A stretch of DNA of 64,000 nucleotides from Candidatus Dormiibacterota bacterium (lineage in GTDB: Bacteria > Chloroflexota > Dormibacteria > Aeolococcales > Aeolococcaceae). The notes beneath the pieces are model-generated. The model ran no database searches and was not told where the DNA came from. It saw only the letters and a list, made by a program, of their open reading frames with translations. Position 1 is the first letter of the stretch; the number at the start of each line of letters is the position of its first letter. Positions 7,905 to 30,102 of the stretch are shown piece by piece. The stretch is from contig OY970355.1 of NCBI GenBank assembly GCA_963718525.1, forward strand, positions 2,592,001 to 2,656,000, read 5' to 3'. Made by a program: the position numbers and the translations under genes.

Positions 7905-7912
7905 GTTGAGGC
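7898..7912 (-). terminator. Hairpin just downstream of 5S, possible rrn terminator
   Basis: GCCTCA-ACG-TGAGGC followed by CTTT on the minus strand. Confidence 0.4.
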
Positions 7913-7930
7913 GAGATACAAAAGAGAGAT

Positions 7931-8047
7931 ACCCGGCAACGACCTACTCTCCCACCCCGTTGCCAGGGCAGTACCATCGGCGCTGGTGGGCTTAACTGCT
8001 GTGTTCGGGATGGGAACAGGTGTTTCCCCACCGCTATGATCACCGGA
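7931..8047 (-). rRNA. rrf: 5S rRNA
   Basis: CCCATCCCGAACAC and GAGAGTAGGTCGTTGCC motifs; flanked by a precursor stem. Confidence 0.97.
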
Positions 8048-8542: not shown

Positions 8543-8579
<37 letters not shown>

Positions 8580-8583
8580 ACTC

Positions 8584-8625
<42 letters not shown>

Positions 8626-8655
8626 TGCCGTCGATGTGAACTCTTGGGCAAGATC

Positions 8656-8692
<37 letters not shown>

Positions 8693-8849
8693 GACGGCCT
8701 TTCCATTCAGAGCCGTCGGATCACTATGCCCGACTTTCGTCCCTGCTCGGCTTGTCGGCCTCACAGTCAAGCTCCCTTACGCCATTACACGCCAAGGCCT
8801 GATTTCCATCCAGGCTGAGGGAACCTTTGGGCGCCTCCGTTACCGTTTG

Positions 8850-8882
<33 letters not shown>

Positions 8883-9161
8883 CCACGGTCCCGACACCGG
8901 ATAACGGCGCCGGTTAGAAATAAAATCCAGCAAGGCTGGTATTCCAAGGTTGACTCCACCGAACCTAGCGGCCCGACTTCACAGTCTCCCAGCTATCCTC
9001 TACATGCTGGACCCCATTTCAGTGGCAAGTTATAGTAAAGCTCCACGGGGTCTTTCCGTCCTGCTGCGGGTAACCTGTATCTTCACAGGTACTTCAGTTT
9101 CGCCGAGTACGTGGCCGAGACAGCGCCCATCTCGTTACGCCATTCGTGCGGGTCGGAACTT

Positions 9162-9919
<758 letters not shown>

Positions 9920-11355
9920 ATTTCAGAGCTTGCACCCCTCCACTTAACCTTCCGGCACCGGGCAGGCGTCAGCCCCTATACGTCAGCTTACGCTTTAGCA
10001 GAGACCTGTGTTTTTAGTAAACAGTCGGATGGGCCTTTTCTCTGCGGCCCTCGTCAGCTCACCGAGTAAATCGGATCACCGCCAAGGGCTCCCCTTCTCC
10101 CGAAGTTACGGGGACATTTTGCCGAGTTCCTTAGCCACGTTTCCCTCGATCGCCTTGGAATCCTCTTCCCACCTACCTGTGTCGGTCTGCGGTACGGGCG
10201 CCGTGGTTCTCGCTAGAGGCTTTTCTTGGAGGCATGGAACCGGCCCCATCGACACGAAGTGTCTTGGGATCCTTCTCGGAGTTAATGTCAAGCGGATTTG
10301 CCTACTTGACCTCCTACAAGGCTCCGTCGGGGACAACCGTCGCCCCGTCAGGCCTATCCTTCCCCGTTCCCCCATTGCTGATAACGAACCAGCGGCGGTG
10401 TTGGAATGTTGACCAACTGTCCATCGCCTACGCCTTTCGGCCTCGGCTTAGGTCCCGACTGACCCTGGGTCGATTAACGTAGCCCAGGAAACCTTAGGTT
10501 TACGGCGAACACGTTTCTCACGCGTTTCTCGCTACTTGTGCCGGCATTCTCACTTCTGTCCGCTCCACCCGTCCTTACGGTCAGGCTTCGCAGCAAACAG
10601 AACGCTCCTCTACCACGACCTTCCTGTGAAGGAAGGCCATCCACGGCTTCGGTTGCAAGCTTGAGCCCCGATCATTGTCGGCGCCACGACATTCGACCAG
10701 TGAGCTGTTACGCACTCTTTAAATGGTGGCTGCCTCTAAGCCCACATCCTGGTTGTCTGGACACCGTGACATCCTTTTCCACTTAGCTTGCGATTTGGGA
10801 CCTTAGCCGGTGGTCTGGGCTGTTTCCCTTTCGACGATGAAGCTTAGCCCCCACCGTCTCACTGCCGCCGGAAAGTTTGTTGCCATTCGGAGTTTGGTTG
10901 GGTTTGGTAACGAGGTGATCGCCCCTAGCCCATTCAGTGCTCTACCGGCCACAAACCCATCGACGACGCTGCACCTAAATGCATTTCGAGGAGAACCAGC
11001 TATATCCGAGTTCGATTGGCATTTCACCGCTATCCACAGTTCATCCGCCGCATTTTCAACTGGGGTCGGTTCGGGCTTCCACGCGGTCTTACCCGCGCTT
11101 CACCCTGACCATGGATAGGTCACTCGGTTTCGGGTCTACTCCATGCGACTACCACCACCATTACAGTGGTCACGCCCTATTCAAACTCGCTTTCGCTACG
11201 GCTCCGGGTGTCAACCCCTTAACCTCGCCACATGGAAGTAACTCGCCGGCTCATTCTACAAAAGGCACGCAATCAGGCATTCCCACTAGGGGCATAGCCC
11301 TCTCACGGCTTGTAAGCACACGGTTTCAGGTACTTTTAACTCCCCGTCTGGGGTG

Positions 11356-11401
<46 letters not shown>

Positions 11402-12134
11402 AGTATTCAGGCTTGGACGATGGTCCGCCCAGATTCCCACAGAATTCCACGTGTTCCGTGGTACTTGGGAGCTCTCAAAGGAGGTCGTGTGCCTTTCGCG
11501 TACGGGGCTGTCACCCTCTGCGGCCGGCTTTTCCAATGCCGTTCGGCTAGACAACGACTTTGTAACTCCTTGTCCCCTCGGCAGAAGGAACGCTGAGGTC
11601 CCGCGACCCCGAGACGGAAACGCCTGCCGGCTATCACGCCGTCTCGGTTTAGCCTCACCCCTTTTCGCTCGCCACTACTCAGGGGATGACATCTTTTCCT
11701 GCGGATACTTAGATGTTTCAGTTCTCCGCGTGCCCTCTACCCGGTCTATATATTCAACCGGGAGTACCTGGACATTCCTCCAGGTGGGTTGCCCCATTCG
11801 GAAATCCCCGGATCGAGTGCTTGCTAGCAGCTACCCGAGGCTTATCGCAACAACGCTACGTCCTTCATCGGCTCTTGGTGCCAAGGCATCCACCGTGTGC
11901 CCTTGGTAGCTTGACCTTTCCTATCGTCACTGTTCAATGACTGCAGGAGGCCTGGTGACGACGCTGCGTCACCACGACACGTGTTTCGCCTGGCTTGTTG
12001 TTTGTTATTGAGGATTCTCACTTGAACGCTGGACGACGGAAACCGTCCAGTGTTCTCGCAGACTCGCTATTCTCGTGTCAACGTGCAAACGACCGACCTT
12101 GAGGCCGGCTGTCGAGCGGAGGGGTCGTTGCCCG

Positions 12135-12207
12135 TGGAGATGGCCGGGCTCGAACCGGCGACCCCCTGCTTGCAAAGCAGGTGCTCTTCCAGCTGAGCTA
12201 CATCCCC
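12135..12207 (-). tRNA. tRNA-Ala(TGC)
   Basis: Cloverleaf GGGGATGTAGCTCAG...TTGCA...GTTCGAG; CCA not encoded. Confidence 0.96.
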
Positions 12208-12222
12208 GGACGGATACGAGCG

Positions 12223-12296
12223 TGGGCCTTTGTGGATTCGAACCACAGACCTCACGGTTATCAGCCGTGCGCTCTCACCAACTGAGCTAAAGGCCC
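12223..12296 (-). tRNA. tRNA-Ile(GAT)
   Basis: Cloverleaf GGGCCTTTAGCTCAG...CTGATAA...GTTCGAAT; CCA not encoded. Confidence 0.96.
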
Positions 12297-12608
12297 GTGT
12301 GGGCCCGGCGCAGCCGGTCCCCTTGACCGCTGAAGCGTGGAGCGACATCCGCGAGGCGACGTGGTTGCCTCGGGCGCCTGGAGCACCGCGCTCCTGACGC
12401 GCATTTATTTCTGCAGATTCCCACTGCCTGCTGGCCGGCCTCCCCGCCACGCTTGCGCGTGGTGGATCGCGCCACATTACATCCCGGTATTCTTCGCGAT
12501 TGCTCGCTACTCTTCGCGGTTCTTCATGACGCGTTGCTGCACGGCTTGAGTTGACTGGTCCGTGCCGTGATGCGCATTGCTGCGCGTACGCACTCGGGCC
12601 ACTCCCTA

Positions 12609-14118
<1,510 letters not shown>

Positions 14119-15882: not shown

Positions 15883-16194
15883 TCAGAGGAGGCCGGGAGG
15901 GAGACCCAACCCCGCGGTCAACTGCGACATGTTCGCGGCCGCGGCCTCGCGTGACTTGTCGAGCGCGTCGTTGATTGCGGCGAGGATCAGATCGGCAAGC
16001 AGCTCGGCACCCTCTTCGAGCGCCTCGGGCTCGATCGCGACCGACAGCACCTTCTGGTGCCCGTCGGCGGTGATCGACACGACACCGCCGCCGGCGGTAC
16101 CGGTGACGGTCACGTCGTTGAGCTCCTCCTGCATCTTGGCCATACGGGCCTGGACCTGCTGGAGCTGCTTCATCATCTGCTGCTGGTTCTTCAT
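15883..16194 (-). CDS. ybaB: Nucleoid-associated protein YbaB/EbfC
   Basis: GTAGGGVV and DLILAAINDA motifs; conserved dnaX-ybaB-recR order. Confidence 0.95.
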   Translation of the reverse strand: MKNQQQMMKQLQQVQARMAKMQEELNDVTVTGTAGGGVVSITADGHQKVLSVAIEPEALEEGAELLADLILAAINDALDKSREAAAANMSQLTAGLGLPPGLL

Positions 16195-16215
16195 CTCGGA
16201 CCTCGTTGGGGCAGT

Positions 16216-17958
16216 CTACGCACCGTTGACCGATCGCGGCGTCCCGAGCCTCGTATCGTCGTGGAGGCGCGTCGCCGTGATCCGGCTGCCGGCAAAGGTA
16301 TCGAGCACTGCCTGGGTGATGTCACTGACCGCGCCGGACGCACCGCGCGGCCGCTCGTCGCCGGTGAACTCGGTCAGCACCTCGATCGGCCGGCCGGCGA
16401 TCGAGGACAGCGCATCGGCGATCACCCGGCGCTTGTCGGCATCGCTGATCTGCTCGTGGTGGAAGCGGCCGTTGGTCCCGATGGTCACGCGGGTCGCGTC
16501 TGCGGCGACAGGCTTGCAGTCCCGGAGCACCCCGGCGAGCCCCTTGTTGGCGCGCGCCACGGCCTCGATGGCAACCGGCCATTCCGCGAGCCAGCCGTCG
16601 ACGGTGGTGAGGTCGCGGCGCCCGATCGCCTCGACAACATCCTCCGGTCCGACGGAGCTGGGGATGACGGTCGGCGTCCCGTCGGGCATCGCCTCCGGCG
16701 TGACTTCGGCGGCGGCATGAGGACGGTCCGATGCCGCTGCCGTCCGGGGTGGAGGTTGCTCCGTGACACCTTGTGGCGGCGGCGTCCCCCCGGCAGGAGG
16801 TACGGCCGCGGTCGCACCGCGCTCGAGGGCCGCGACGCGCAGCGCCAGGGCTGTGATCCCCGCATCCTCGCCGTCGGCAGCCGGCGGGCGCAGTGCGCGA
16901 AGCAGGCACACCTCGACGAGCAGCCGGGCGTCGACCGACTGGCGCAGATTCATCTCGGCCTCGGCGACGAGTTCGAGGAGACGCAGCCAGAGTCCCGCGG
17001 GCGCGATTGCCGCGAGATCGGCGACCAACGAAACTTCGTCAGGACCGACTGGCGCGCCCTCAGGGTAGCCGAGAGCGACCAGCTCTGCGGCACGCGCGAG
17101 GCGCGCCACGTCGCGAAAGAGCTGACGGGGATCGGCACCGGCGTCGAATGCGGCCGCCGCCGCGCGCAGGGTGCCCGCCGGGTCCGCGCCCGCGAGCGAC
17201 GTGACCAGCGCATGGAGGGTCGACGGGTCGGTGAGGCCGAGTGAGCGCCGCGCCACCGTGACGGTGACCGGCCGTTCGCCGGCGCCGAGCGCCTGCTCGA
17301 GGAGCACCAGGGCGTCTCTCAGGCTGCCCTGCGCGGCGGTCGCCAGCAGCGCCAGGGCATCAGCATCGACACTCTCACCCTCTTTTCCCGCAACGTCGGC
17401 AAGCAGCTGCTCGATGGCCGGCACTGGGACCCGCCGGAAGTCGAAGCGCTGCACTCGCGACCGGATCGTCTCCGGCACCTTGTGCGGCTCCGTGGTCGCC
17501 AGCACGAAGAGGACGTGCGGGGGTGGCTCTTCCAGCGTCTTGAGGAAGGCGTTCCACGCGTCGGTGGTGAGCATGTGCGCCTCGTCGATGATGTAGACCT
17601 TGCGACGCAGCACAGCCGGCAGATAGCCCACGCGCTCACGAAGCTCGCGCATATCGTCGATGCTCCGGTTGCTCGCTGCGTCGATCTCGAGCACGTCCAC
17701 CGCGGCGCCGCTGAGGATCTCGACGCAGGGTGGGCACACGTTGTCGGGCTCGCCATCGACGGGGGCATCGCAGTTGACGGCGCGGGCAAGGATGCGCGCG
17801 GTGGACGTCTTGCCGGTACCACGGACCCCCGTGAACAGGTAACCGTGGGCGAGCTCGCCGGATCGCACCTCGTTGAGGAGGGTCCGCGCGACGACCTCCT
17901 GCCCCACGAGGTCGGCGAAGCGTTGCGGGCGATAGCGGCGATAGAGGGCGAGGCTCAC
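16216..17958 (-). CDS. dnaX: DNA polymerase III subunit gamma/tau
   Basis: ALYRRYRP, GVRGTGKT, IIDEAHML and LKTLEEPP motifs; start reset to GTG 17958. Confidence 0.96.
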   Translation of the reverse strand: MSLALYRRYRPQRFADLVGQEVVARTLLNEVRSGELAHGYLFTGVRGTGKTSTARILARAVNCDAPVDGEPDNVCPPCVEILSGAAVDVLEIDAASNRSIDDMRELRERVGYLPAVLRRKVYIIDEAHMLTTDAWNAFLKTLEEPPPHVLFVLATTEPHKVPETIRSRVQRFDFRRVPVPAIEQLLADVAGKEGESVDADALALLATAAQGSLRDALVLLEQALGAGERPVTVTVARRSLGLTDPSTLHALVTSLAGADPAGTLRAAAAAFDAGADPRQLFRDVARLARAAELVALGYPEGAPVGPDEVSLVADLAAIAPAGLWLRLLELVAEAEMNLRQSVDARLLVEVCLLRALRPPAADGEDAGITALALRVAALERGATAAVPPAGGTPPPQGVTEQPPPRTAAASDRPHAAAEVTPEAMPDGTPTVIPSSVGPEDVVEAIGRRDLTTVDGWLAEWPVAIEAVARANKGLAGVLRDCKPVAADATRVTIGTNGRFHHEQISDADKRRVIADALSSIAGRPIEVLTEFTGDERPRGASGAVSDITQAVLDTFAGSRITATRLHDDTRLGTPRSVNGA

Positions 17959-18092: not shown

Positions 18093-18362
18093 AGTCGCGC
18101 ACCCCATGTCGTTGGCACGCCACCAGCGCTCACCCGTACGACCGGCTCAGACCAGGTGTCCCCACGGCACCCCCGGGGAACCGCTTACCGCTGCTTCCTT
18201 CCGGACCTGACGGGGTTCACGGGCCCGAGCTGCGCGGGACCCAGTCGTCAACGCCGGCGCGTCCGGAGCAGACCCAATGACGCGCCCCCTCGATGGGGAA
18301 TTCAGCCCCGCTATAGCGGATTGCGGGTACAGGGCACCGCTAACGCCCCGCCTAGCGCGACC
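18093..18362 (-). ncRNA. ffs: Large bacterial SRP RNA (Alu + S domains)
   Basis: TCAGGTCCGGAAGGAAGCAGC helix 8; Alu-like GCGGTGCCCTGTACCCGCAATCCGC; terminal stem; TACAAT 6 nt upstream. Confidence 0.92.
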
Positions 18363-21454: not shown

Positions 21455-22311
21455 ACACGTGATGGAACGGATACCACTGCTCGGGATGAGCACGGATCGC
21501 CGGCTCGACACTGGTGGCGATGCGGGCGATCACCGCAGCATCGTCGCCCGAGGCGTCGACGGGGGGATGGATCTCCAGCACCCATCCCCGCCCGTCTCGC
21601 CGGCACGTCACCGGGAGGATCGGTGCGCCGGTTGACGCCGCCAGGCGCGCGGGAACCGCGCTGCAGCGCACGGGGCCGCCGCAGAACGGCACGACGACGG
21701 TCGGTCCGGCTTCGGGCACGTCGAGCATCAGGGCGACGGTCCTCCCCTTTCGCAGCGCGCGAAATAGCCCTCGCGCGGACTGCCGCACCGTGAAAATCTC
21801 GAGGCCCTTGCGCTGCCGCGAGAGTGCCACCATCTCTGTGATCCCCGGCGACACGACCGGAGCCATCACGGTGCTGAGGTGGAGGCCGAGGCCAAGCGAG
21901 GCGCTCGCGGCCATGTCCCAATTGCCGAAGTGGGGAAGCACCACCATCGAGCCGCGGCCGCCGACGTCCAGGTGCTCTGCGCCATGCACTCGAAACAGCT
22001 CGAGCACCTGCCACGAGTTCGAGCGGGTCGGCCCACACCGAGTCCACGACCATGCGCACGTACTCCTGGTAGGAACGTCGCGCAAGCGCCACAGCCGCGG
22101 CATGGTCGAGGTGAGGCTGCAGGCGGTGATGGTTCGCGGCCGCGCGCACGCGATCCTCACTGCTCAGACGCGCATACCAGGCCGCTCCGACGACGGCGGC
22201 CGCCGGCCCGCGCATCGGCCCGAGCGCGCGGACCGCTCTGGTGAGGGCGCTGAGCGCGACGGCGGGGATGTCCCTGCCGGCTCCTGCCGGTCGTGCTTCC
22301 GGCGCTGTCAG
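21441..22311 (-). pseudogene. Lipid A/PIM-type acyltransferase with a 1-nt frameshift near 22018
   Basis: N-half in one frame (ANHHRL...ARRSYQEY); C-half in another (HFGNWD, PEQW). Confidence 0.75.
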
Positions 22312-23795
22312 CGCAGTGTTCCGGCTCCCGCTGTCGCCACCGCGAGCAGCGGCTGGATCAGCACCACCAGCACCACGCCCGCAAGGCAGGCCGTACCGGC
22401 AACGATGCGAGACAAGACGGGTGTCGCCCCGAGCGTGAAGGGGACCGCATCCCCGGCATCCGCGTACAGCGACGCGATGAACCGCACCGCCGCGATCAAC
22501 GTCAACAGGCCGGCGGCGATCGCGACCACTGCCAGCCACCCATAGTGCGTGTCCGCTGCGCTCGAGATGAGCAGGATTCGCGACAGAAATCCCGCGAGCG
22601 GGGGCACGCCGGCGAGTGTCCCCACCGCGACGGTGAGCAGGAGCGCCGCGGGGGCCGATCGATGCGCCAGGCCGCGCAGATCGTCGAGCCCATCACCGAT
22701 TCCCGCGACCTGCAGCATCGCAAGCACGCCGAACGCCGCCAGCATCGCGATCACCGTGATGCCCAACCCGCTGAGGAAAGCGGTCACCCCATACGCCGGC
22801 AGCCCACGTGACCCGGTCGAGAACGCCAGCAGTCCAAGCAGGAGCATCGCCGTCTGCGTGCTGATCAGCTGACCGACAAGGCGGGCGACCGAGGTCTCAC
22901 GCAGCGAGCTCAGCGAGGAATACCCGAGCGCGACCGCCGCGACAATGGGTACGAGCCATCGCCAGACACCGACCCCGGGTCCGAAGCCCGAGATGGTCAC
23001 GCGCGCCAGCGCCGCCCCGCCGCCGATCAGGCTCATCGCGATGACGAATCCCGCCGCTGCCGCGGGCACATTGGTGGCAACACGCCCCACCCATTGCCGC
23101 AGCGGGAAGACGCCGAAGGTGCCGCAGAGTCCCAGAACGACGAGCGCGACACCGAGCGCCACTGCCCCAGGAGCTGCGTGCGCGGCGGCGGCGACAGCGG
23201 CGAGATTCGTACTTCGCGTGGTGCCGTAGAGGATCGCGAGTCCGTACACCACGGCGGCGAGCCCGACACTGCCTTCGATGAGGTGCTCGAAGGACGACAC
23301 CGCGCCGCGCGGGTTGGTCTTCACGAGCGCTCCGAGCGATACGAGACAGATCAGCAGCAGCGCGAGTGCAACGAACAGCGTGGTCATCTCGCGTTCGGCG
23401 CCGATCGCCTCAACCGCGGCGGTCGCAATCAGCAGGAGGCCATAGAACGCGCCCGTCCGCGCAGGGATGGTGCGCACGGCCGAGTCACTGATCAAACACG
23501 TGGTGAGCGCTGCGACGCAGGCCAGGATCGCGATGTACAGAGCAAAGCTGTCGACCACGAACCCGCCGTTCCACACCGTGATCGCAACCCCCGAACGCAC
23601 GTGGCGAAGTCCGAGCAGGACCAGGGCGCATGCTGCGAGCGACCCCACCAGTCCGATGCATGCGATCCAGCGGTGGATGTCCGGACGCAACCCTGGCCGG
23701 AGCACCGCGACGAGCGCAGAGATCGCAGCTGTCCCAACCAGCATCGCCTCGGGAAGGAGCGCGAGCGTCAGCGCGTGCGCGAAATCAGCGGGCAT
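22308..23795 (-). CDS. nuoN: NuoN-like subunit, highly divergent
   Basis: Multi-TM; GLAILYGTTRSTNL and LAGVPPLAGF motifs; last gene of J-K-L-M-N. Confidence 0.82.
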   Translation of the reverse strand: MPADFAHALTLALLPEAMLVGTAAISALVAVLRPGLRPDIHRWIACIGLVGSLAACALVLLGLRHVRSGVAITVWNGGFVVDSFALYIAILACVAALTTCLISDSAVRTIPARTGAFYGLLLIATAAVEAIGAEREMTTLFVALALLLICLVSLGALVKTNPRGAVSSFEHLIEGSVGLAAVVYGLAILYGTTRSTNLAAVAAAAHAAPGAVALGVALVVLGLCGTFGVFPLRQWVGRVATNVPAAAAGFVIAMSLIGGGAALARVTISGFGPGVGVWRWLVPIVAAVALGYSSLSSLRETSVARLVGQLISTQTAMLLLGLLAFSTGSRGLPAYGVTAFLSGLGITVIAMLAAFGVLAMLQVAGIGDGLDDLRGLAHRSAPAALLLTVAVGTLAGVPPLAGFLSRILLISSAADTHYGWLAVVAIAAGLLTLIAAVRFIASLYADAGDAVPFTLGATPVLSRIVAGTACLAGVVLVVLIQPLLAVATAGAGTLR

Positions 23796-23798
23796 GCG

Positions 23799-25289
23799 CT
23801 AAGCCCCGGTGATCCGGGTGGTGATCTCGAGCACGCCGTTGGCGATCACCGGGATCACCGCCCCCGCGCGGAGTCCGAAGAGCAGCACAGCCGCGACCAG
23901 CGGGATGAGGACGGTCAGATCGAGGAGAGTGACATCACGCACGCGGGCGAACTGGTCGCGCACGGGCCCGAAGAAGACGCGATTCGCGACCCAGAGCAGA
24001 CCGCCGGTGATGACGATCACGCTGGCCATCACCAGCACAGTTGCGATCCGGTGCTCCGGGAACGAGCCGGCGAAGACCATGAAATCGCCGGTGAATCCCG
24101 CAAGGAATGGAATGCCGATGACGCTCGCTGCAGCAACCAGCCAGAACCCCGCAAGGCGCGGCGCCTGCGTGACCAACCCACCCATGGCTCGAATGCTCGT
24201 CGTCCGGGTTCGCTCCTCGATCGCGCCGCTCACCAGCGTGAGCATCGCCGACCCGAGACCCTGGCCGCAGAGGAGCAGGACGGCCCCGACCAGCGCCACC
24301 GACGTCTGCGCGCCGATTGCCAGGAGCACGAGCGACATCTGGGCGACATTCATGTATCCGATGAACCGGCGCAACTCGTCCTGCCGCAGCGCGCCGACGC
24401 TGCCCCAGAACGCGCCCACCACCGCAAGGCCCGTGATCGCGAACCCGTAGTAGTGCGCCGCCGCTGGGAAGACGACGAGGCTGATTCGCATCATCCCGTA
24501 GGCGCCGAGCAGCAGCATCGTCCCGGAAAGGATGGTCGCGACGCCGGCGCTCGCCTTGGTCTGCGCCTCGAGCATCCATGTATGCACTGGAAAGATGGCC
24601 ATCGCGATCGCGAACGCGGTGAAGCTCAGCCAGAACCCGACCGTTTCCGCCGTGACGGAGAACGTGGTCAGGTCGGCGGTCATGTCCGAAGACTGAGCAC
24701 CGGCTTCCACGACGATGATCACGACGGTTGCGATGATCAGCGCGAGCGACACCGCCTGGAAGCCCGCGAACCATGCCGCGGCGCGACGAGCACCCTCGCC
24801 GCCCCAGATCCGGATGAGCAGGTACATCGGGACCAGCAACATGGCCCAGAAGGCGACGAACAGAACGAAGTCCGAGGAGCACAGGACGCCGTTGACCGCG
24901 GTCTCGACGAGCAGCACGAGGATGACGTACAGACGCACCCGCTCGTGAATCTTCCAGGAATGGAACATCGCGCACCCGAAGATCGTCGTCACCACCACGA
25001 GCAGCGGGAGGCTGATGCCGTCGGCGACAAGGTCATAGTGGGCTTGGAACAGGAAGTTCCAGAACCAGGTGTGATTCTCCTGGTATGCGGATGCCAGGCC
25101 ACCACCCTGGCCGAGCCCGATCTGCCCCAGTATCGCGAAGAACGTCGTCACGAAGAAGCTGACGCCCGCACCGGCCAGGGCGACCGTCCTCACCCGTGCG
25201 CGTTCCTCGTCATTGCGCTCCGGGAGGAAGAGTGCGATCACCGCGAAGAGCAGTGGCGACCAGACGATGGTCGACAGGATCACGCTCAT
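23799..25289 (-). CDS. nuoM: NuoM-like subunit, highly divergent
   Basis: DGISLPL, VPMYLLIRIWGG, FPVHTW and MGGL motifs. Confidence 0.88.
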   Translation of the reverse strand: MSVILSTIVWSPLLFAVIALFLPERNDEERARVRTVALAGAGVSFFVTTFFAILGQIGLGQGGGLASAYQENHTWFWNFLFQAHYDLVADGISLPLLVVVTTIFGCAMFHSWKIHERVRLYVILVLLVETAVNGVLCSSDFVLFVAFWAMLLVPMYLLIRIWGGEGARRAAAWFAGFQAVSLALIIATVVIIVVEAGAQSSDMTADLTTFSVTAETVGFWLSFTAFAIAMAIFPVHTWMLEAQTKASAGVATILSGTMLLLGAYGMMRISLVVFPAAAHYYGFAITGLAVVGAFWGSVGALRQDELRRFIGYMNVAQMSLVLLAIGAQTSVALVGAVLLLCGQGLGSAMLTLVSGAIEERTRTTSIRAMGGLVTQAPRLAGFWLVAAASVIGIPFLAGFTGDFMVFAGSFPEHRIATVLVMASVIVITGGLLWVANRVFFGPVRDQFARVRDVTLLDLTVLIPLVAAVLLFGLRAGAVIPVIANGVLEITTRITGA

Positions 25290-27316
25290 ACCAGGCGCAC
25301 CCAGAGGTGGCCTGTCGCGGCAAGCACCGAAAGCAGCGCGAGAATCCCGACGACAACAACAGCGCCGGCGAGGTACCGCGAGAACCGGATGCTCCGAATA
25401 GCCCCGAGTCCCAACGCGGCGTAGTCGACGCTCTCGCCCACCGATGCTTCGACGGGCGCGATGACCTGCTCGTCGAAGTCGGACACGCGGCCGGCCACGG
25501 CGAGCAGGGGCGGCGCCGCGATCTCCGTCAGTCGCTCGACGTAGAAGCCCTGCGCCGCAATGCGTATCGGCCATGCCGCGCGAACCGGCAACGGCACATC
25601 CCGGCGGGCCGGGCCGAACAGGAGGTATGCCACGCCGAAACCGCCTGCAGCGACAAGCAGGGCGAGGAGTGCCGCGATTCCATCCAGGCCGATCGACTGA
25701 TGGTGGCTCGCATAGAAGACGAAGCGCATGTACGTGAGGCCGGCGATGCGGGCACTGCCGATCGTGAACGGTTGCAGGCCGGGCAGGCCGACGAGCACCG
25801 CGACAACGGCAGCGATCAGGACGAGCCGCAGCGGCCGCCGGAGTGCGCCTTCAACCTCCGCAACCCGATCATGCTGGAATCCCCGGCGGCGACTCACCTC
25901 GCCGGTGGTCACGGTCAGGAGGAGCCGTGCCGCGAGCACCGCGACGAGCACGCCCGCGACCGCGGTGACGATGACGATGACCACGCGCTCGAGGACGCTG
26001 AAGACCCCACCGGCCGGGTCAACGCCGTTCAGCCCGGACGACAGGGCGTAGTAGCAGCTCAGGCCGACGCCGCCGGCAAGCAGCGCCCACGCGCCAAGGG
26101 CGACGCTGGTCGTGCGCAATTTCACCCACGCGCCGCCCATCTCTCCGATGTCGTCGGTGCGATAGACGCGGACGAGGTTGGCGACAGCGAGGAACAGCAG
26201 TGTCGACGTGAATATCGAGGTGAATGCGATGAACACGCCCGGGCTGTAGCCTCCCACGCCCAGCGTAACCACTGCCAGGCTGAGTTCCGAGGCGACGGCG
26301 CACACGGCGATGCGCGTGATGCTGCGCTGCGCGATCCCAGTCGCTGCAGTAACAACAGCGCTGAGGCCGCCCACCAGGGCGAAGACGGGAAGGGCCCGAG
26401 GGGTGTGGGCGACGACGGGGTAGATGCGTGCAACCAGGTAGAGACCAAGTGGCGCGACCGTGGCGCCGGCGAGGGCCAGAACCGGAATCGCCGACGATGC
26501 GGCGTCGCGCAGCCAGACGGTGAAGGGAAATTGAGCGCTGCGCACCGTGGCGGCGACGAGGAACACGATGCCCATCACGAGCAGGGCGCGCGGTCCAGTG
26601 CTGGCCACGCCGTGGTGCAGCGCGGCGATGACTCCCTGTGAGATCACGCTGAAGGAAAATGGATCCGCGATCGACTGTCCGGCCGGTGCGGCCAGCAACG
26701 ACGAGAAGACCCCGAACTTGATCCAGGTGAACAGGACTCCCAGGGTCAGCGCGATGTCACTCGCGGTCAGGATGATGGCGGCGCGCAGTGCGCGGCGCGC
26801 GATATCGGCGCGCTGCCATGCCAGCGTGAGCAGCACGTAGAGGACCGCTGTGGCTCCAACCCACATGATCAGCGAGTCGAAGAGGTTCGGGCTGAGCACG
26901 AAACCGGTCGTGCAGAAGGCGAGCACAGACGACCCGCAGAAGAAGCGCCGGTACCCCTGCTCGCCGCGCATCGCGGTGACCGAGTAGATCTGGATCACGA
27001 GGGTCGCGAACACGATCGCCGCGGCGAAGCTTGCCGAGAGAGAGTCGACGTGCACGCCGACCTGTGCCTGGAACTGCGTCGCAAACGTCGCGCCCTCCGG
27101 CGGGGTCATCGTGAAGAAGGTCAGCAGCGAGTCGAACGGTGCTGCAGTCGCGTGGGTCAGGCGGACGCCGAGCACGATGGCGGCCACGACGAACGACGCG
27201 CCGCTGAACACGACGCAGAGCTGCGCGGCGCGCCGCTGCGTCTCCACACCGAGGGAGGCGAGCGCACCGAGCAGCGGGAGAAAGGGAATCGCCCACGCCG
27301 CGTTGTAGATGCCCAC
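25286..27316 (-). CDS. nuoL: NuoL-like subunit, highly divergent
   Basis: MRGEQGYRRFF, SAQFPF.VWL and EMGG motifs; C-terminal amphipathic helix region. Confidence 0.88.
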   Translation of the reverse strand: MGIYNAAWAIPFLPLLGALASLGVETQRRAAQLCVVFSGASFVVAAIVLGVRLTHATAAPFDSLLTFFTMTPPEGATFATQFQAQVGVHVDSLSASFAAAIVFATLVIQIYSVTAMRGEQGYRRFFCGSSVLAFCTTGFVLSPNLFDSLIMWVGATAVLYVLLTLAWQRADIARRALRAAIILTASDIALTLGVLFTWIKFGVFSSLLAAPAGQSIADPFSFSVISQGVIAALHHGVASTGPRALLVMGIVFLVAATVRSAQFPFTVWLRDAASSAIPVLALAGATVAPLGLYLVARIYPVVAHTPRALPVFALVGGLSAVVTAATGIAQRSITRIAVCAVASELSLAVVTLGVGGYSPGVFIAFTSIFTSTLLFLAVANLVRVYRTDDIGEMGGAWVKLRTTSVALGAWALLAGGVGLSCYYALSSGLNGVDPAGGVFSVLERVVIVIVTAVAGVLVAVLAARLLLTVTTGEVSRRRGFQHDRVAEVEGALRRPLRLVLIAAVVAVLVGLPGLQPFTIGSARIAGLTYMRFVFYASHHQSIGLDGIAALLALLVAAGGFGVAYLLFGPARRDVPLPVRAAWPIRIAAQGFYVERLTEIAAPPLLAVAGRVSDFDEQVIAPVEASVGESVDYAALGLGAIRSIRFSRYLAGAVVVVGILALLSVLAATGHLWVRLV

Positions 27317-27321
27317 CCGCG

Positions 27322-27636
27322 CTATGCCTCGACGTCGCCGAGGGCGTCGATATCGGCTCGCCCGGTCCGGCGCCAGAGCAGCACGATCAGAGCGAACCCG
27401 AGGCTGCAGACACAGGTCGCCACGACGATGGCGATCGCGGCGAGCGCGTCGCCAAAGGCGACCGGGGGCGCCTGGATTGCATGGGTGAAGCCGACGATGG
27501 CGATCACGGGTGCGGCAAAGAGGAGTCCGATTCCCATCACGACTCCAAGCGGATGGCGGCGAGCGAGCACCCCATACACGCCGATGGCGAAGACGACAGC
27601 GCTCAACAGCGCGAAGCCCTCCGGACCAGCGCTCAT
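27322..27636 (-). CDS. nuoK: NuoK-like subunit, divergent
   Basis: FAIGVYGVLARR, three TMs, 104 aa. Confidence 0.82.
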   Translation of the reverse strand: MSAGPEGFALLSAVVFAIGVYGVLARRHPLGVVMGIGLLFAAPVIAIVGFTHAIQAPPVAFGDALAAIAIVVATCVCSLGFALIVLLWRRTGRADIDALGDVEA

Positions 27637-28250
27637 GAGTCGCTCCTTGACGGGCGTCGCCTGCCCTGCTCGCGGTCCTCACGGCGCCTGCGCGCAAGCT
27701 CTTCGCGCTGCCGGCGCAGCTGGAGGTACTGGTCAAGCGTCTGCTCGTCGGTGCTCCGGCGTCCGATGACCAACCCCATAGCCGCGGTGATGATCACGAC
27801 AACCGCACTGATTGCCAGTGCGTAGGGTGCGCGGTAATGGAGCACCGTGATCAGCGCCGCGCTCTGGGTGAGGAGCGGAGAGTAACCCGAGAAGCCCGGG
27901 TACCAACCCGATCCGACGGCGGCCAGCGTCGCGATCAGCACCGCGGCGATACCCACGGCGATTGGTGCGGCGATCCAGAAGCGTTCAGGTCCAGCCGGCA
28001 CTGCGAGCAGCCCACGATAAGCGTCGCGCCGGAGCACCATTGTCACGACCACGGCGGCGACAGCCGGCACGACGAGTTGCACGACCGCGAGCGCATAGGC
28101 CCCTGAGATGAGCTCGAGGACACCCATGAGGACGATCACCGCCCCGCCCGCGTACCCGGCATGGCGCAGCGAAGGAAGCCCAACTGCGGCCCCGGCGGCA
28201 AGCACGATGAGCACGGCGACGGCATAGAACGCGATTGCGTTGGGGGTCAT
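27633..28250 (-). CDS. nuoJ: NuoJ-like subunit, divergent, with Arg-rich tail
   Basis: Five hydrophobic segments, IAFY start and GAY..VVQL motif; upstream of nuoK. Confidence 0.72.
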   Translation of the reverse strand: MTPNAIAFYAVAVLIVLAAGAAVGLPSLRHAGYAGGAVIVLMGVLELISGAYALAVVQLVVPAVAAVVVTMVLRRDAYRGLLAVPAGPERFWIAAPIAVGIAAVLIATLAAVGSGWYPGFSGYSPLLTQSAALITVLHYRAPYALAISAVVVIITAAMGLVIGRRSTDEQTLDQYLQLRRQREELARRRREDREQGRRRPSRSDS

Positions 28251-28265
28251 AGGGTCGCGGGCGGC

Positions 28266-28271
28266 ATTGTA
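28266..28271 (-). promoter_or_regulatory. -10 element upstream of nuoJ
   Basis: TACAAT 15 nt before the nuoJ ATG. Confidence 0.5.
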
Positions 28272-28283
28272 GTCAGCGCGGGC

Positions 28284-28694
28284 TCAGACCGAATCGTCGT
28301 CTTCAAGCCGCGACGCCCGCGTCGGCGCCGCAATACGGACCGTGCCAGGGATGCGCTCGAAGATGAGCACCAGGCTGAGACCGACAGCCGCGATCAGCAG
28401 CCCGACGATCGCGACCGGCGTTACCCGGATGCCAATCAGCGGCAGGGACACCCCGGCGTCCCACGGTCCGGGTGTCGACGTCGAAGCCGCGGCTCCATAG
28501 CGCGCCACCGCGGAGGGGCTCGGAAACACTCGCTGCCCGACGACGCCCGCGACGAATGCCAGGCTGCCAAGGGTGCAGATGAAATAGAGCCAGTTGCCGC
28601 TGTGACGCGCTGCCACCGTGGACGTGGTCACCGCCAGGCAGCCGGCGAGCACCGCGACGATGCCGATCACGACCTGCTCGGGGGTCGGGGGCAA
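28284..28694 (-). CDS. Hypothetical three-TM membrane protein
   Basis: Fills the mnmA-nuoJ gap; hydrophobic helices. Confidence 0.65.
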   Translation of the reverse strand: MPPTPEQVVIGIVAVLAGCLAVTTSTVAARHSGNWLYFICTLGSLAFVAGVVGQRVFPSPSAVARYGAAASTSTPGPWDAGVSLPLIGIRVTPVAIVGLLIAAVGLSLVLIFERIPGTVRIAAPTRASRLEDDDSV

Positions 28695-28706: not shown

Positions 28707-29831
28707 TCAGGCGGCCCGGCGGACCAACCCGCCTCCGAGGACCTCGTCGCCGCGATAGAGCACCATCGATTGTCCCGGCGCAGCCTGGTCGACCGGGGCA
28801 TCGAACCTGACGCGCACGCCGGTGGCGTCGGTCGCCTCGATCGTCGCTGCGTGCGGCTCGCCGTGGGCCCGAAGCTGTGCATTGCATCGGGTCCCCTGTG
28901 CTGGGCCGCGACCCGAGACCCAGTGGAACGAGGACGCCTCGACAAGGCTGGAGCGCAGCGCTTCGCGTGGTCCGACGACCAGGGTGTTCGCGGCCGGGCG
29001 GAGTTCGATGACAAAACGCGGTGCCGCGTCGGGCCGCGACGGCGCAATCCCCAGGCCGGCACGCTGCCCCACGGTGAAGAACGGAAGGCCCTCGTGCTGC
29101 CCGAGCACCATGCCGTCGAGGTCGGTGATGGCGCCGGCTGAGAAACGTCCGGCGAGCCGTTGGCGCAGCTCGGACCTCATGTCAGTCTCGACGAAGCACA
29201 GATCCTGCAACTCGGGCTTGGCTGCCGTGACCAGCCCGAGAGCGGCCGCTTCCGCCCGGACGCTCGCCTTGGATTCGTCACCCCCGAGCGCGAACACAGC
29301 GCCATGCAACTGGTGTTGGTCGAGCCGGTGGAGCACGTACGCCTGGTCGCGGCGGAGGTCGCGTGCCCGGTGCAGTGTCGTCAGCGATCCCCTCCGGCCG
29401 GTGCGTGCGTAGTGGCCGGTGGCGAGATGGGTCGCCCCTGCGGCCCGAGCCCGCTCGAGCAGCACGCCGAACTTGATGCGCTGATTGCATCTCACGCAGG
29501 GGTTGGGGGTGAGGCCCTGCGCATAGCCGTCCTCGAAGTCAGCCACGACCTCTCTCTCGAAGTCCCGCTCGAGATTCCATACGTAGTGCGGGAGCGACAG
29601 CGCTGCCGCCACGCGGCGGGCGTCATCCACCGCATCGATCGAGCAGCACCCACGGTCGCGGACGCTTTCGCGGCTTCCCGGCCACATCGCAAGGGTGATG
29701 CCGAACGCGTGCAGACCGGTTGCCGCGACGCGGGCAGCAGCAACGCTCGAGTCCACTCCTCCCGACATCGCCACGGCGATCACCGACGATCGCGGCAGGA
29801 GATCCAGCGGACGGTCAGCGGCGACCGCCAC
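28707..29831 (-). CDS. mnmA: tRNA 2-thiouridylase MnmA
   Basis: SGGVDS, GCCS, PNPCVRCN, ATGHY and TVGQR motifs. Confidence 0.95.
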   Translation of the reverse strand: MAVAADRPLDLLPRSSVIAVAMSGGVDSSVAAARVAATGLHAFGITLAMWPGSRESVRDRGCCSIDAVDDARRVAAALSLPHYVWNLERDFEREVVADFEDGYAQGLTPNPCVRCNQRIKFGVLLERARAAGATHLATGHYARTGRRGSLTTLHRARDLRRDQAYVLHRLDQHQLHGAVFALGGDESKASVRAEAAALGLVTAAKPELQDLCFVETDMRSELRQRLAGRFSAGAITDLDGMVLGQHEGLPFFTVGQRAGLGIAPSRPDAAPRFVIELRPAANTLVVGPREALRSSLVEASSFHWVSGRGPAQGTRCNAQLRAHGEPHAATIEATDATGVRVRFDAPVDQAAPGQSMVLYRGDEVLGGGLVRRAA

Positions 29832-30102
29832 CTCCGGCAACGGCGGGGACGATCGATACCTCGTCGCGCTCGGCGATGGCGGTGTCGAGGCCCTGGGCGA
29901 AGCGGATATCGGAGTCATTGACATAGATGTTGATGAACTGCCGCAGGCTCCCGGAGTCGTCATACAGACGGTCGTGGAAGCCAGGATAGGTCGCATCGAG
30001 GTTGGTGAGCACCGCGCCGACGGTGTCACCCTCCACACTGACCTCGGCGCTGCCGCCGGTGAGCCTGCGAAGGGGTCCAGGAACGCGAACCGTGGTTGCC
30101 AT
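29815..30102 (-). CDS. MoaD/ThiS ubiquitin-like sulfur carrier with C-terminal extension
   Basis: FINIYVNDSDIR...IVPAVAGG followed by GGRR. Confidence 0.9.
   Translation of the reverse strand: MATTVRVPGPLRRLTGGSAEVSVEGDTVGAVLTNLDATYPGFHDRLYDDSGSLRQFINIYVNDSDIRFAQGLDTAIAERDEVSIVPAVAGGGGRR

What the first reader, a model, noticed from the sequence alone, without database searches (positions are those of the whole stretch)
22308..28250. Intact complex I membrane-arm operon (nuoJKLMN) that has lost almost all proton-pumping residues
Seen: five full-length, tightly coupled ORFs in J-K-L-M-N order, a candidate -10 before nuoJ, and no nuoA-I next to them. Compared by eye with recalled E. coli motifs: NuoL E144>V (codon 26858-26860), K229>R, H254 lost, H334/H338/K342>I/S/S, K399>Y. 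NuoM E144>A (24843-24845), K234>A, K265>L, E407>D. NuoN E133>A (23361-23363), K217>T, K247>L, K395>R. NuoK E36>G (27526-27528), E72>V. The NuoJ VYAGA motif is lost. Established: these residues form the central charged axis of complex I and are largely conserved in Mrp antiporters and related hydrogenases. Structural motifs around them (MRGExGYxRFF, VPMY, MGGL, the NuoL lateral helix) are kept. Inference: this is a maintained but neutralised arm with a different job. It could be a swap-in non-pumping arm that uncouples complex I, a scaffold or assembly placeholder, or a carrier for an uncharged substrate. I know of no described system like this.
Basis: partly seen in the sequence, partly recalled or inferred. 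Interest (0 to 1): 0.92.

Follow-up and report, generated by a model that had tools for sequence, protein, structure and literature searches.

The report
Charge-stripped relic complex I membrane arm
A soil bacterium of the Dormibacteria keeps, under clear purifying selection, only the membrane half of a second respiratory complex I; the electron-handling half was deleted and the proton-pumping residues have since eroded, so a very large former ion pump appears to survive for some job other than pumping.

Summary
On the minus strand, 22308-28250 holds intact, tightly packed nuoJ-K-L-M-N paralogues. Only 1 of the 20 Glu/Lys/His/Asp axis residues I scored survives, against 19 of 20 in the same genome's canonical nuoA-N operon 0.6 Mb away.

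It is not decay. The cluster is collinear in 70 of 70 related loci, nearly all labelled Candidatus Dormibacterota. dN/dS is 0.05-0.27, similar to neighbouring housekeeping genes.

It encodes a conserved 3-TM protein of no known family.

The origin can be traced. Two related genomes carry, at the same place after mnmA, a complete 11-subunit operon (nuoA-D, H-N, no nuoEFG; one also carries X), with 20 of 20 axis residues. Trees place the arm-only clusters inside that clade. So this is the surviving arm of a second complex I that lost nuoA, B, C, D, H and I, after which the axis eroded. The erosion went to different degrees, with different residues, in different families.

Its present job is unknown. 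I favour a stand-alone, non-pumping structural or docking complex. A swap-in arm for the canonical enzyme is not excluded. I found no published description.

The parts
28284..28694 (-). Gene X: a small 3-TM membrane protein of no known family with an acidic C-terminus (LEDDDSV). The likely TTG start is at 28694 (136 aa), which matches the MPPTP... N-termini of orthologues. The first GTG is at 28670 (128 aa). It is the first gene of the cluster, 12 nt after the mnmA stop.
   Evidence: Translation and DNA. tblastn found it in 60 of 70 related loci, always between mnmA and dJ. dN/dS is 0.09-0.27. No Pfam, PDB-sequence, Foldseek or ESM Atlas match. The AF2 model has pLDDT 81.5 and shows three TM helices, a loop helix and a hairpin. 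An orthologue also sits in front of the intact 11-subunit operon of G005.
28260..28275 (-). Conserved 16-nt non-coding element, TGACTACAATGCCGCC, in the 33-nt X-dJ spacer. It could be an internal promoter or another regulatory site.
   Evidence: The TACAAT core is present in 34 of 34 loci where both X and dJ were called. The 16-mer TGAMTACAATGCCGCC matches exactly in 40 of the 70 related loci. It occurs once in the 3.34-Mb genome, allowing 1 mismatch. The consensus scan called no sigma-70 promoter, and no Rfam family matches here.
27633..28250 (-). dJ: a NuoJ paralogue (205 aa). The TM3 YAGA motif is lost. It has a long, conserved, charged C-terminal helix (…RRQREELARRRREDREQGRRR…).
   Evidence: NCBIfam NuoJ models match only weakly (E 6e-7). 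hhalign against a canonical NuoJ profile gives probability 96.2%. The family alignment is A3. dN/dS is 0.11-0.25.
27322..27636 (-). dK: a NuoK paralogue (104 aa). Both membrane glutamates are lost (E36>G, E72>V).
   Evidence: PF00420 E 1.4e-14. Alignments. dN/dS is 0.11-0.18.
25286..27316 (-). dL: a NuoL paralogue (676 aa). It keeps the lateral helix and the C-terminal TM anchor. Of the 8 scored residues only D178 remains, and K229 has become an Arg that is conserved across the family.
   Evidence: The AF2 model (pLDDT 63, pTM 0.71) matches NdhF/NuoL/ND5 chains over the full length (Foldseek E 7e-21, TM 0.66-0.77). Orthologues at 35-93% identity have the same length.
23799..25289 (-). dM: a NuoM paralogue (496 aa) and the best-conserved member. 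0 of 6 scored axis residues are kept.
   Evidence: TIGR01972 scores 312 bits, above its cut-off. The PDB sequence search is topped by complex I NuoM/ND4 chains. Residues. dN/dS is 0.05-0.13.
22308..23795 (-). dN: a NuoN paralogue (495 aa). 0 of 4 scored residues are kept. K395 has become an invariant Arg.
   Evidence: dN/dS is 0.10-0.18.
28707..30038 (-). mnmA (tRNA 2-thiouridylase): the conserved upstream neighbour and positional marker of the locus. It is context, not a functional part.
   Evidence: Pfam PF03054, PF20258 and PF20259. It lies upstream of the cluster in 64 of 70 loci, and upstream of the intact or partly eroded second operons in other families.

Best explanation
The locus encodes a six-protein membrane complex: X plus paralogues of NuoJ, K, L, M and N. 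It is the surviving membrane arm of a second, NuoEFG-less (11-subunit) complex I that this bacterial class carried next to mnmA. In this lineage the genes for NuoA, B, C, D, H and I were deleted. Those genes supply the quinone site, the link to it and the entrance of the E-channel. With no redox module to drive it, selection on the Glu/Lys/His proton path stopped and the path eroded. The arm therefore cannot be a redox-driven proton pump.

Shown here: the descent, the erosion and the continuing purifying selection.

Inferred, about 0.45: the six proteins still assemble into a complex-I-like arm on their own. The arm then acts through its shape and surfaces as a non-pumping structural or docking platform in the membrane, a 'pseudo-pump' analogous to a pseudoenzyme. 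Candidate surfaces are the conserved cytoplasmic Arg-rich loops, the charged tail of dJ and the acidic tail of X. It would not act through ion transport.
For: (1) Descent. G012 and G005 carry, directly after mnmA, a complete 11-subunit operon: G012 has a small TM ORF followed by nuoA-B-C-D-H-I-J-K-L-M-N, and G005 has a clear X orthologue, an NDH-2-like gene and then the same nuo genes, nuoI being inferred from the H-J gap there. Both keep 20 of 20 axis residues. G005 already has the charged J tail and the insertion, RRRGF motif and ATGH C-terminus of L. NuoM trees and a NuoL+M+N tree split a canonical clade from a 'second' clade (SH-aLRT 99-100). The intact operons sit basal to, or as sister of, the arm-only genes.

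(2) Erosion tracks loss of the Q-module genes. Arm-only clusters keep 11 of 20 (f3), 3 of 18 (f4), 1 of 18 (f2) and 1 of 20 (this window) axis residues, and the replacements differ between lineages. Within the f1 arm-only family the former axis positions sit at a median 74th percentile of column entropy.

(3) Maintenance. The gene order is collinear in 70 of 70 loci, and none has a NuoH- or NuoI-like hit within up to 10 kb. Orthologues keep full length down to 35% identity. dN/dS is 0.05-0.27, against 0.19-0.28 for mnmA, galK and the histidine kinase. For the same genome pair, canonical J-N give 0.06-0.135.

(4) Fold and subunit contacts are retained. The dL model matches NuoL, NdhF and ND5 over the full length, lateral helix included. 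The PDB sequence search ranks complex I above Mrp.

(5) Only one NuoH, one NuoD and one complex-I NuoB gene exist in this genome, all in the canonical operon, which has its own J-N.
Against: I have no evidence of expression, assembly or any phenotype. The structural role is an inference by elimination.

Three charged positions are fixed: L D178, L K229>R/H and N K395>R. Some residual ion-linked function is therefore conceivable.

A strong NuoH co-occurs in nearly all genomes of the class (143 of 151 have a PF00146 match), so dependence on the canonical enzyme cannot be excluded.

The best trees imply at least two independent losses of the Q-module genes. However, AU tests do not reject a single loss (p 0.15 for NuoM; p 0.056 for L+M+N). 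The long f2 and f4 branches also move between trees.
Confidence: 0.45

Rival explanations
1. Swap-in arm. The neutralised J-N set, with X, replaces the canonical membrane arm on the canonical NuoA/H and peripheral arm. The result would be a non-pumping or low-stoichiometry NADH:menaquinone oxidoreductase for conditions of high proton-motive force or energy limitation.
For: A strong canonical-type NuoH is found in most genomes of the class (143 of 151 have a PF00146 match). Dead paralogues often work by binding the partners of their active relatives (general knowledge of pseudoenzymes). The conserved 16-nt element in front of dJ could provide separate regulation. The canonical NuoL of this class itself lacks the TM5 Glu, which hints that pump stoichiometry is under unusual selection here.
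Against: The two subunit sets separated before the class radiated. dM is about 28% identical to canonical NuoM, and hhalign aligns the dJ and canonical NuoJ families at 20% identity over TM1-3. Cross-assembly would therefore need interfaces conserved across deep divergence. dJ, which would touch NuoH and NuoA, is the most diverged member and has lost the TM3 motif. The replacements differ between lineages and the positions are variable, which looks like release from constraint rather than selection for a defined uncoupled state. In G051 (88% complete) only a weak 105-bit NuoH-like hit was found, and in G088 (85% complete) none, although both have the arm-only dL. This last point is weak because both genomes are incomplete.
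Confidence: 0.15
2. The arm has become the membrane partner of some other module encoded elsewhere, such as a hydrogenase, a dehydrogenase or a flavoprotein. It would act as anchor or conduit for that module rather than standing alone.
For: In family f3 an FNR-like flavoprotein gene sits between the small TM gene and nuoJ. In G005 an NDH-2-like gene sits inside the intact operon. This genome has two extra NuoB-like matches (PF01058) elsewhere, which I take to be hydrogenase small subunits but did not check. The conserved charged tails of dJ and X look like docking elements.
Against: No such gene is linked to the cluster in any of the 70 f1 loci. No quinone-site subunit other than the canonical one exists in this genome. 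The charged tails were already present in the intact enzyme, so they are not new docking devices.
Confidence: 0.15
3. The complex is still a transporter or channel with a changed mechanism or substrate. Options include an uncharged solute, or an ion path using the remaining Arg, Asp, Gln and Ser residues.
For: L D178, L R229 and N R395 are fixed. Polar Q, S, T or D replace several His, Lys and Glu residues (M H322>Q, H348>Q, E407>D; L H338>S, K342>S). Mrp shows that an arm-like complex can transport ions without a redox module (established knowledge).
Against: Most former axis positions vary among G, A, V, L, I, T and M inside the family, with entropy at the 60th-95th percentile for 12 of 19 positions. 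That is not what a defined binding or conduction site looks like. Both NuoK glutamates and all TM5 glutamates are gone. Other families eroded to other residues.
Confidence: 0.12
4. The cluster is a functionless relic on its way out. The ORFs would remain open only because decay is slow, or because the high G+C content suppresses stop codons.
For: dJ, dK, dL and dN evolve 2-3 times faster (dN/dS) than their canonical counterparts in the same genome pair.
Against: dN/dS is 0.05-0.27 across five comparisons with dS up to about 1. Lengths and gene order are conserved in 70 of 70 loci spanning 33-90% dL identity by tblastn. dM is as constrained as canonical NuoM (0.126 against 0.135). GC3 of 0.76-0.81 is typical of coding sequence in this genome.
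Confidence: 0.03

Closest known systems
Membrane arm of respiratory complex I (NuoJ, K, L, M, N of E. coli, Thermus, Mycobacterium; PDB 3RKO, 4HE8, 8E9G and others)
   Same: Same five subunit families in the same gene order. Same fold for L, including the lateral helix (Foldseek TM 0.66-0.77). The best PDB sequence matches are complex I chains. Structural motifs are kept.
   Different: No nuoA-I in the operon. 19 of 20 scored axis residues are missing. There is an extra subunit, X. Scores fall below the NCBIfam equivalog cut-offs for J, K, L and N.
11-subunit (NuoEFG-less) complex I-like enzymes. These are described for cyanobacterial NDH-1 and many bacteria; I saw only the search listing and the starts of the abstracts of PMC3144371 and PMC11238625. 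Here they are represented by the intact second operons of G012 and G005.
   Same: Direct relatives. They sit at the same chromosomal place after mnmA and fall in the same clade in the NuoM and L+M+N trees. G005 has the same X subunit, J tail and L insertion.
   Different: The window's cluster lacks nuoA, B, C, D, H and I and has lost the charged axis. The intact operons keep 20 of 20.
Mrp (Mnh/Pha) multisubunit cation/proton antiporter
   Same: A stand-alone membrane complex built from NuoL/M/N-, NuoK- and NuoJ-like parts with no redox module.
   Different: Mrp keeps the Glu/Lys axis and transports ions (established knowledge). Sequence matches to Mrp chains are much weaker than to complex I: for dM, E 1e-25 (7QRU_D) against 4e-50 (8QBY_M). 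I identified no MrpB/E/F/G-like genes; MrpB/E/F/G were not searched as such, and X matches no Pfam family.
Pseudoenzymes, meaning catalytically dead paralogues kept for scaffolding or regulation (a concept, recalled)
   Same: The residues essential for activity are lost, yet fold, length and purifying selection remain.
   Different: Here a whole six-subunit complex of roughly 50 TM helices is 'dead', not a single soluble protein. No partner or regulated target is known.

Membership tests
Respiratory complex I membrane arm (proton-pumping NuoJKLMN) | Homologues of NuoJ, K, L, M and N encoded together in that order | tested here: met
   Pfam and NCBIfam hits. hhalign for J. ORF order.
Respiratory complex I membrane arm (proton-pumping NuoJKLMN) | Conserved TM5 Glu, TM7 Lys, TM8 His/Lys and TM12 Lys/Glu in L, M and N, and the two NuoK glutamates (the central charged axis) | tested here: not met
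   1 of 20 scored positions is kept, against 19 of 20 in the same genome's canonical copy and 20 of 20 in E. coli.
Respiratory complex I membrane arm (proton-pumping NuoJKLMN) | Encoded and assembled with NuoA, NuoH and the Q-module (NuoB, C, D, I) | tested here: not met
   None is adjacent. 0 of 70 related loci have a NuoH- or NuoI-like hit in their flanks. The only NuoH and NuoD genes in the genome are in the canonical operon. Physical assembly could not be tested.
Respiratory complex I membrane arm (proton-pumping NuoJKLMN) | NuoL lateral amphipathic helix plus C-terminal TM anchor | tested here: met
   The AF2 model shows helices 582-637 and a TM helix at 648-667, though pLDDT is below 50 from residue 571. 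Foldseek aligns full-length NuoL/NdhF/ND5 chains.
11-subunit (NuoEFG-less) complex I-like enzyme | Phylogenetic membership of its subunits in that operon's clade | tested here: met
   The 'second' clade has SH-aLRT 99-100, with the intact operons of G012 and G005 basal or sister to the arm-only genes.
11-subunit (NuoEFG-less) complex I-like enzyme | Presence of nuoA, B, C, D, H and I | tested here: not met
   The window has X followed directly by dJ. Compare G005 and G012.
Mrp antiporter | MrpA with its C-terminal MrpB-like extension, and the MrpE, F and G subunits | tested here: not met
   dL has NuoL architecture and length. X matches no Pfam family at E up to 10 other than chance-level hits. 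Complex I chains outrank Mrp chains.
Mrp antiporter | Cation/proton antiport activity | not testable with these tools
   This needs transport assays. The residues Mrp uses (recalled) are the same axis that is missing here.
Pseudogene cluster | Frameshifts or stops, variable length, dN/dS near 1 | tested here: not met
   ORFs are intact. Orthologues keep their length. dN/dS is 0.05-0.27.

The most novel reading that the evidence does not exclude
The neutralised arm is a regulated alternative module. It docks onto the canonical NuoA/H and peripheral arm and turns complex I into a non-pumping, or much lower-stoichiometry, NADH:menaquinone oxidoreductase. That would be a natural 'gear shift' of complex I for life at the energy limit, in a class whose canonical NuoL already lacks the TM5 glutamate.
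Probability: 0.12. Interest if true: 0.92.

Novelty: new variant of a known kind. Interest (0 to 1): 0.7.

Why it matters
Complex I research treats the Glu/Lys/His axis of NuoK, L, M and N as the reason these subunits exist. Here nature has removed the redox half of a complex I, probably more than once. It then let 19 of 20 axis residues drift, yet kept about 2,100 residues of membrane protein under selection as strong as for housekeeping genes.

This offers three things. First, it is a natural mutational scan that separates 'needed for folding and assembly' from 'needed for pumping', with intact, half-eroded and fully eroded relatives in one bacterial class. Second, it suggests the membrane arm has a selectable function independent of ion translocation, such as scaffolding, membrane organisation or docking. 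That possibility also bears on mitochondrial complex I and on assembly intermediates. Third, it provides a previously unnoticed small subunit, X, of an 11-subunit complex I. If the arm instead swaps onto the canonical enzyme, it would be the first natural variable-stoichiometry complex I.

Tried and rejected
Complex prediction: I submitted X as partner with dN, dJ and dK, each chain as an alignment. The verdict was 'no answer' (score 0.00, controls not run). This is no evidence either way.

Expression: no RNA holder is listed. The one run labelled RNA-Seq is probably DNA, and only contigs were available. Both runs carry contigs over the region at 90-100% identity. Nothing can be said about transcription.

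X against known families: Pfam at E up to 10, a PDB profile search, Foldseek against the PDB (best E 1.6) and the ESM Atlas all gave nothing usable. I first considered X as a NuoA descendant. I rejected that because nuoA and X (or, in G012, a small TM ORF in the same position) coexist in the intact operons of G005 and G012. Homology of X to the small TM ORF of f3 is weak (hhalign E 3.3e-4, probability 38%). Homology to that of f5 is not supported.

Promoter and terminator scan: 0 promoter-like sites, and no terminator-like site at a gene boundary of the cluster. Rfam: no RNA family in the cluster.

Independent losses: AU tests did not reject a single origin of all arm-only genes (p 0.151; p 0.056). 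I therefore state 'probably at least two losses', not 'shown'.

The first dN/dS run gave three values above 1 for control genes. These came from internal stops in three tblastn HSPs, which MAFFT dropped, shifting the codon register. I repeated the run with X at the stops and the values became 0.15-0.22.

The canonical NuoJ value (0.33) included out-of-frame upstream sequence. I recomputed it from the true start (0.103).

Papers: six answered searches and one passage look-up in PMC4758237 (where 'partial nuo operon' refers to mbx-like clusters) found no description of a neutralised or arm-only nuoJKLMN cluster. Subscription journals are not covered. I did not ask for any supplements.

I did not use the one search of protein representatives or the metagenome scan.

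Full report
**What is there**

The window is G+C-rich (about 67%). It belongs to a single-contig genome of 3,336,189 bp. Between 22308 and 28694, seven features lie head to tail on the minus strand, after mnmA (28707-30038; Pfam tRNA_Me_trans):

- X: 28284-28694
- a 33-nt spacer
- dJ: 27633-28250
- dK: 27322-27636
- dL: 25286-27316
- dM: 23799-25289
- dN: 22308-23795

The genes overlap by 4 nt (J/K, L/M) or are 3-5 nt apart (K-L, M-N). Downstream follow a Lip_A_acyltrans gene, a GHMP kinase, a histidine kinase, SRP RNA, dnaX, ybaB and recR. This is ordinary chromosome, not an island.

Pfam and NCBIfam recognise dK, dL, dM and dN as NuoK, L, M and N relatives. Only dM reaches a curated cut-off (TIGR01972, 312 against 264 bits). 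dL scores 176 against 556, dN 136 against 333, and dJ only 29 against 192. A profile-profile comparison confirms dJ as a NuoJ homologue (probability 96.2%).

I took E. coli K-12 NuoJ-N from NC_000913 and this genome's own canonical NuoJ-N and aligned them with the window's proteins. The exception is L K399, which faces V, G or L depending on the alignment, not Y. No Lys is nearby in any case.

Over 20 scored positions the window's set keeps one, L D178:

| Subunit | Positions scored |
|---|---|
| K | E36, E72 |
| L | E144, D178, K229, H254, H334, H338, K342, K399 |
| M | E144, K234, K265, H322, H348, E407 |
| N | E133, K217, K247, K395 |

The canonical set of the same genome keeps 19. The structural motifs and the NuoL lateral helix remain.

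**A canonical complex I exists elsewhere**

The genome has six PF00361 genes. Three are canonical (225-247 bits) at 2.005-2.009 Mb, and three are the window's (57-138 bits). It has one NuoH, one NuoD and one complex-I NuoB. Two further NuoB-like (PF01058) matches lie elsewhere in the genome; I take them to be hydrogenase small subunits but did not check. The canonical operon is complete through nuoN.

**It is conserved and constrained, not decaying**

A protein search with dL found full-length orthologues (660-678 aa) from 93% down to 35% identity. The few that carry names are labelled Candidatus Dormibacter(ia/aeota) or Chloroflexota.

A scan of species-representative genomes returned 70 loci, of which 58 are labelled Dormibacter*. 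In 70 of 70, the detected genes lie on one strand in the order mnmA-X-J-K-L-M-N. All seven were detected in 40 loci. In 0 of 70 is there a NuoH- or NuoI-like hit within the flanks.

The axis substitutions are shared throughout. Nei-Gojobori dN/dS against five relatives, with dS from 0.23 to 1.4:

| Gene | dN/dS |
|---|---|
| X | 0.09-0.27 |
| dJ | 0.11-0.25 |
| dK | 0.11-0.18 |
| dL | 0.14-0.24 |
| dM | 0.05-0.13 |
| dN | 0.10-0.18 |
| mnmA, galK, histidine kinase (neighbours) | 0.19-0.28 |

For one genome pair (G000 against G072) I compared the arm-only genes with their canonical counterparts:

| Subunit | Arm-only | Canonical |
|---|---|---|
| J | 0.24 | 0.10 |
| K | 0.18 | 0.06 |
| L | 0.24 | 0.09 |
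| M | 0.13 | 0.135 |
| N | 0.18 | 0.08 |

So J, K, L and N evolve two to three times faster than the canonical genes, M evolves at the same rate, and all are far from neutrality.

**A sixth member, X**

The ORF between mnmA and dJ encodes a protein of 128-136 residues. The AF2 model (pLDDT 81.5) predicts three TM helices, a loop helix and a short hairpin. It carries an invariant Trp-Asp motif and a conserved acidic C-terminus, L-[ED]-[ED]-D-D-[ST]-[VI].

tblastn finds it in 60 of 70 loci. It is under purifying selection. It matches nothing in Pfam, in PDB sequences, in PDB folds or in the ESM Atlas. With its profile, X is found in 13 of 13 sampled genomes of family f1 plus the window's own genome. 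It is not found in 0 of 20 genomes of the other four families of the class. In the rest of the phylum sample there is one marginal hit, at E 8e-4.

**Where the cluster comes from**

I surveyed 151 genomes of the class, which has five GTDB families, called f1-f5 here. The window's genome is in f1. NuoL-like matches occur in 148 of 151 genomes, mostly two per genome. NuoH occurs in 143 of 151, with two strong copies in 11 of 11 f5 genomes. Reading representative loci gave a series:

- G012 (f5): mnmA, a small TM ORF, then nuoA-B-C-D-H-I-J-K-L-M-N. There is no nuoEFG. All hallmark motifs are present, and a separate canonical operon lies elsewhere.
- G005 (f1, another genus): mnmA, X (a clear orthologue, E 7e-27), an NDH-2-like gene, then nuoA-B-C-D-H-(I)-J-K-L-M-N.
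- G022 (f3): mnmA, a small TM ORF, an FNR-like gene, then J-K-L-M-N only.
- G141 (f2) and G039 (f4): arm-only clusters that have diverged still further.

Axis residues kept:

| Cluster | Axis residues kept |
|---|---|
| G005, intact | 20 of 20 |
| G012, intact | 20 of 20 |
| f3, arm-only | 11 of 20 |
| f4, arm-only | 3 of 18 |
| f2, arm-only | 1 of 18 |
| Window (f1), arm-only | 1 of 20 |

The replacements differ between lineages. G005's intact enzyme already has the features that distinguish the window's proteins from canonical ones: the charged C-tail on J, the roughly 30-residue insertion in L, and the RRRGF motif and ATGH C-terminus of L.

NuoM trees and a concatenated L+M+N tree separate a canonical clade from a 'second-complex' clade (SH-aLRT 99-100). 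Inside the second clade, G012's intact operon is basal. In the NuoM tree G005's intact operon is sister (SH-aLRT 99) to the f1 arm-only genes; in the L+M+N tree it falls with them in a 99-supported clade whose base is unresolved.

The simplest reading is this. The class ancestor had two complex I enzymes, a 14-subunit one and an 11-subunit one next to mnmA. The 11-subunit operon later lost nuoA, B, C, D, H and I, leaving X fused directly to J-N.

The best trees and the genome taxonomy imply at least two such losses. One would lie within f1 after G005 branched, and one or more in f2, f3 and f4. AU tests do not formally reject a single loss (p 0.151; p 0.056).

**What the erosion pattern says**

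Within the f1 arm-only family (54-63 sequences per subunit), the former axis columns are now ordinary or highly variable. Their median sits at the 74th percentile of column entropy. They are filled with G, A, V, I, L, T, M, S or Q.

Three positions are exceptions: L D178 (invariant), N K395>R (invariant) and L K229>R/H.

So the axis was released from constraint once the Q-module was gone. It was not rebuilt into a new defined site. Two or three charges may survive as structural salt bridges or for an unknown reason. The rest of each protein stayed constrained.

**How it most likely works**

These points are shown:

- The proteins cannot form the complex I proton path.
- They have no dedicated NuoA, NuoH or Q-module.
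- They are nevertheless maintained.

My inference is that they still assemble into an arm-like complex with X. The fold, the lateral helix, the tight operon and co-conservation support this. The complex would then be selected for something that depends on its structure, such as a platform or scaffold in the membrane. I put this at about 0.45.

The rivals are:

- A swap-in arm on the canonical peripheral arm (0.15).
- A membrane partner for another module (0.15).
- A transporter with altered chemistry (0.12).
- A functionless relic (0.03).

The swap-in idea is attractive, particularly since the canonical NuoL of this class itself lacks the TM5 Glu. Against it stand three points. The two subunit sets are deeply diverged. 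dJ is the most diverged member. The erosion is lineage-specific and looks unselected. Two incomplete genomes have the arm-only dL without a canonical-strength NuoH: G051 (88% complete) and G088 (85% complete). That is suggestive only.

**Regulatory hint**

The X-dJ spacer contains TGACTACAATGCCGCC. The TACAAT core is present in 34 of 34 loci with both genes called, including relatives whose dL is only about 45% identical. The 16-mer, in the degenerate form TGAMTACAATGCCGCC, is exact in 40 of the 70 loci. It is unique in the genome. At synonymous divergence near saturation, this conservation means function. The generic promoter scan did not call it.

**Comparison with what is known**

By homology and order, the proteins belong to the complex I membrane-arm families. 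They fail the defining functional features of those families, namely the charged axis and linkage to NuoA/H and the Q-module. They descend from an 11-subunit complex I-like operon but are no longer one. In being stand-alone they resemble Mrp, but they are not Mrp by sequence, subunit set or residues.

Six answered paper searches and one passage check found no description of such a cluster. Subscription literature and supplements were not covered. I class it as a new variant of a known kind.

**Limits**

- There is no expression, assembly or functional evidence. The single complex-prediction job gave no verdict, and no RNA data were available (see Tried and rejected).
- All relatives are metagenome-assembled genomes.
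- Family labels f1-f5 are the tool's anonymised GTDB families.
- Tallies include some genomes flagged unpublished. No individual claim rests on them.

Noticed in passing
Own genome G000:C1:2004537-2006504 (canonical nuoL, locus L002); also L082, L087, L088: The canonical 14-subunit complex I of this class lacks the NuoL TM5 glutamate (E. coli E144). The motif reads GWALVAL or GWALVGL in the f1, f4 and f5 genomes examined and GWGGVGL in f3. The second, 11-subunit enzyme of G012 and G005 keeps it (GWELVGV, AWEGVGL). In this class the 'normal' enzyme may itself have a modified distal pump.
   Followed up: partly
window 28260-28275 (minus strand): A 16-nt element, TGACTACAATGCCGCC, lies between X and dJ. 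It is conserved far beyond synonymous sites (34 of 34 loci for the TACAAT core, 40 of 70 loci for the exact 16-mer) and is unique in the genome. It could be an internal promoter or an operator.
   Followed up: partly
window 7931-14118 (minus strand): The low-G+C stretch (56-59%) is an rRNA operon: 16S, two tRNAs, 23S, 5S. The 23S match spans 3,703 nt for a 2,925-nt model, so the gene carries about 780 nt of extra sequence, possibly an intervening sequence or intron. An ORF at 10979-11596 (+) lies inside it.
   Followed up: no
L089 (G005:C13) 15982-17439 minus; L079 (G022:C1) 7134-7913 plus: Extra flavoprotein genes sit inside the second-complex operons. G005 has an NDH-2-like gene (485 aa) between X and nuoA. 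G022 has an FNR-like gene (259 aa) between the small TM gene and nuoJ. These are candidates for the unknown electron-input module of the NuoEFG-less enzyme.
   Followed up: no
G072:C1:364254-370876: A same-genus genome has a third cluster, with a weak NuoH-like gene (99 bits) and two PF00361 genes (167-170 bits). It could be a hydrogenase-4/Mbh-like or Ehr-like complex. It is absent from the window's genome.
   Followed up: no
L053, L067 (related loci): In these two loci the tblastn matches to dL, dM and dN are fragmentary, covering only part of each gene. This could reflect frameshift errors in long-read assemblies or real disruption of the cluster in those strains.
   Followed up: no
window 18095-18360 (minus strand): Bacterial large SRP RNA (185 bits) lies between the histidine-kinase gene and dnaX.
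   Followed up: no
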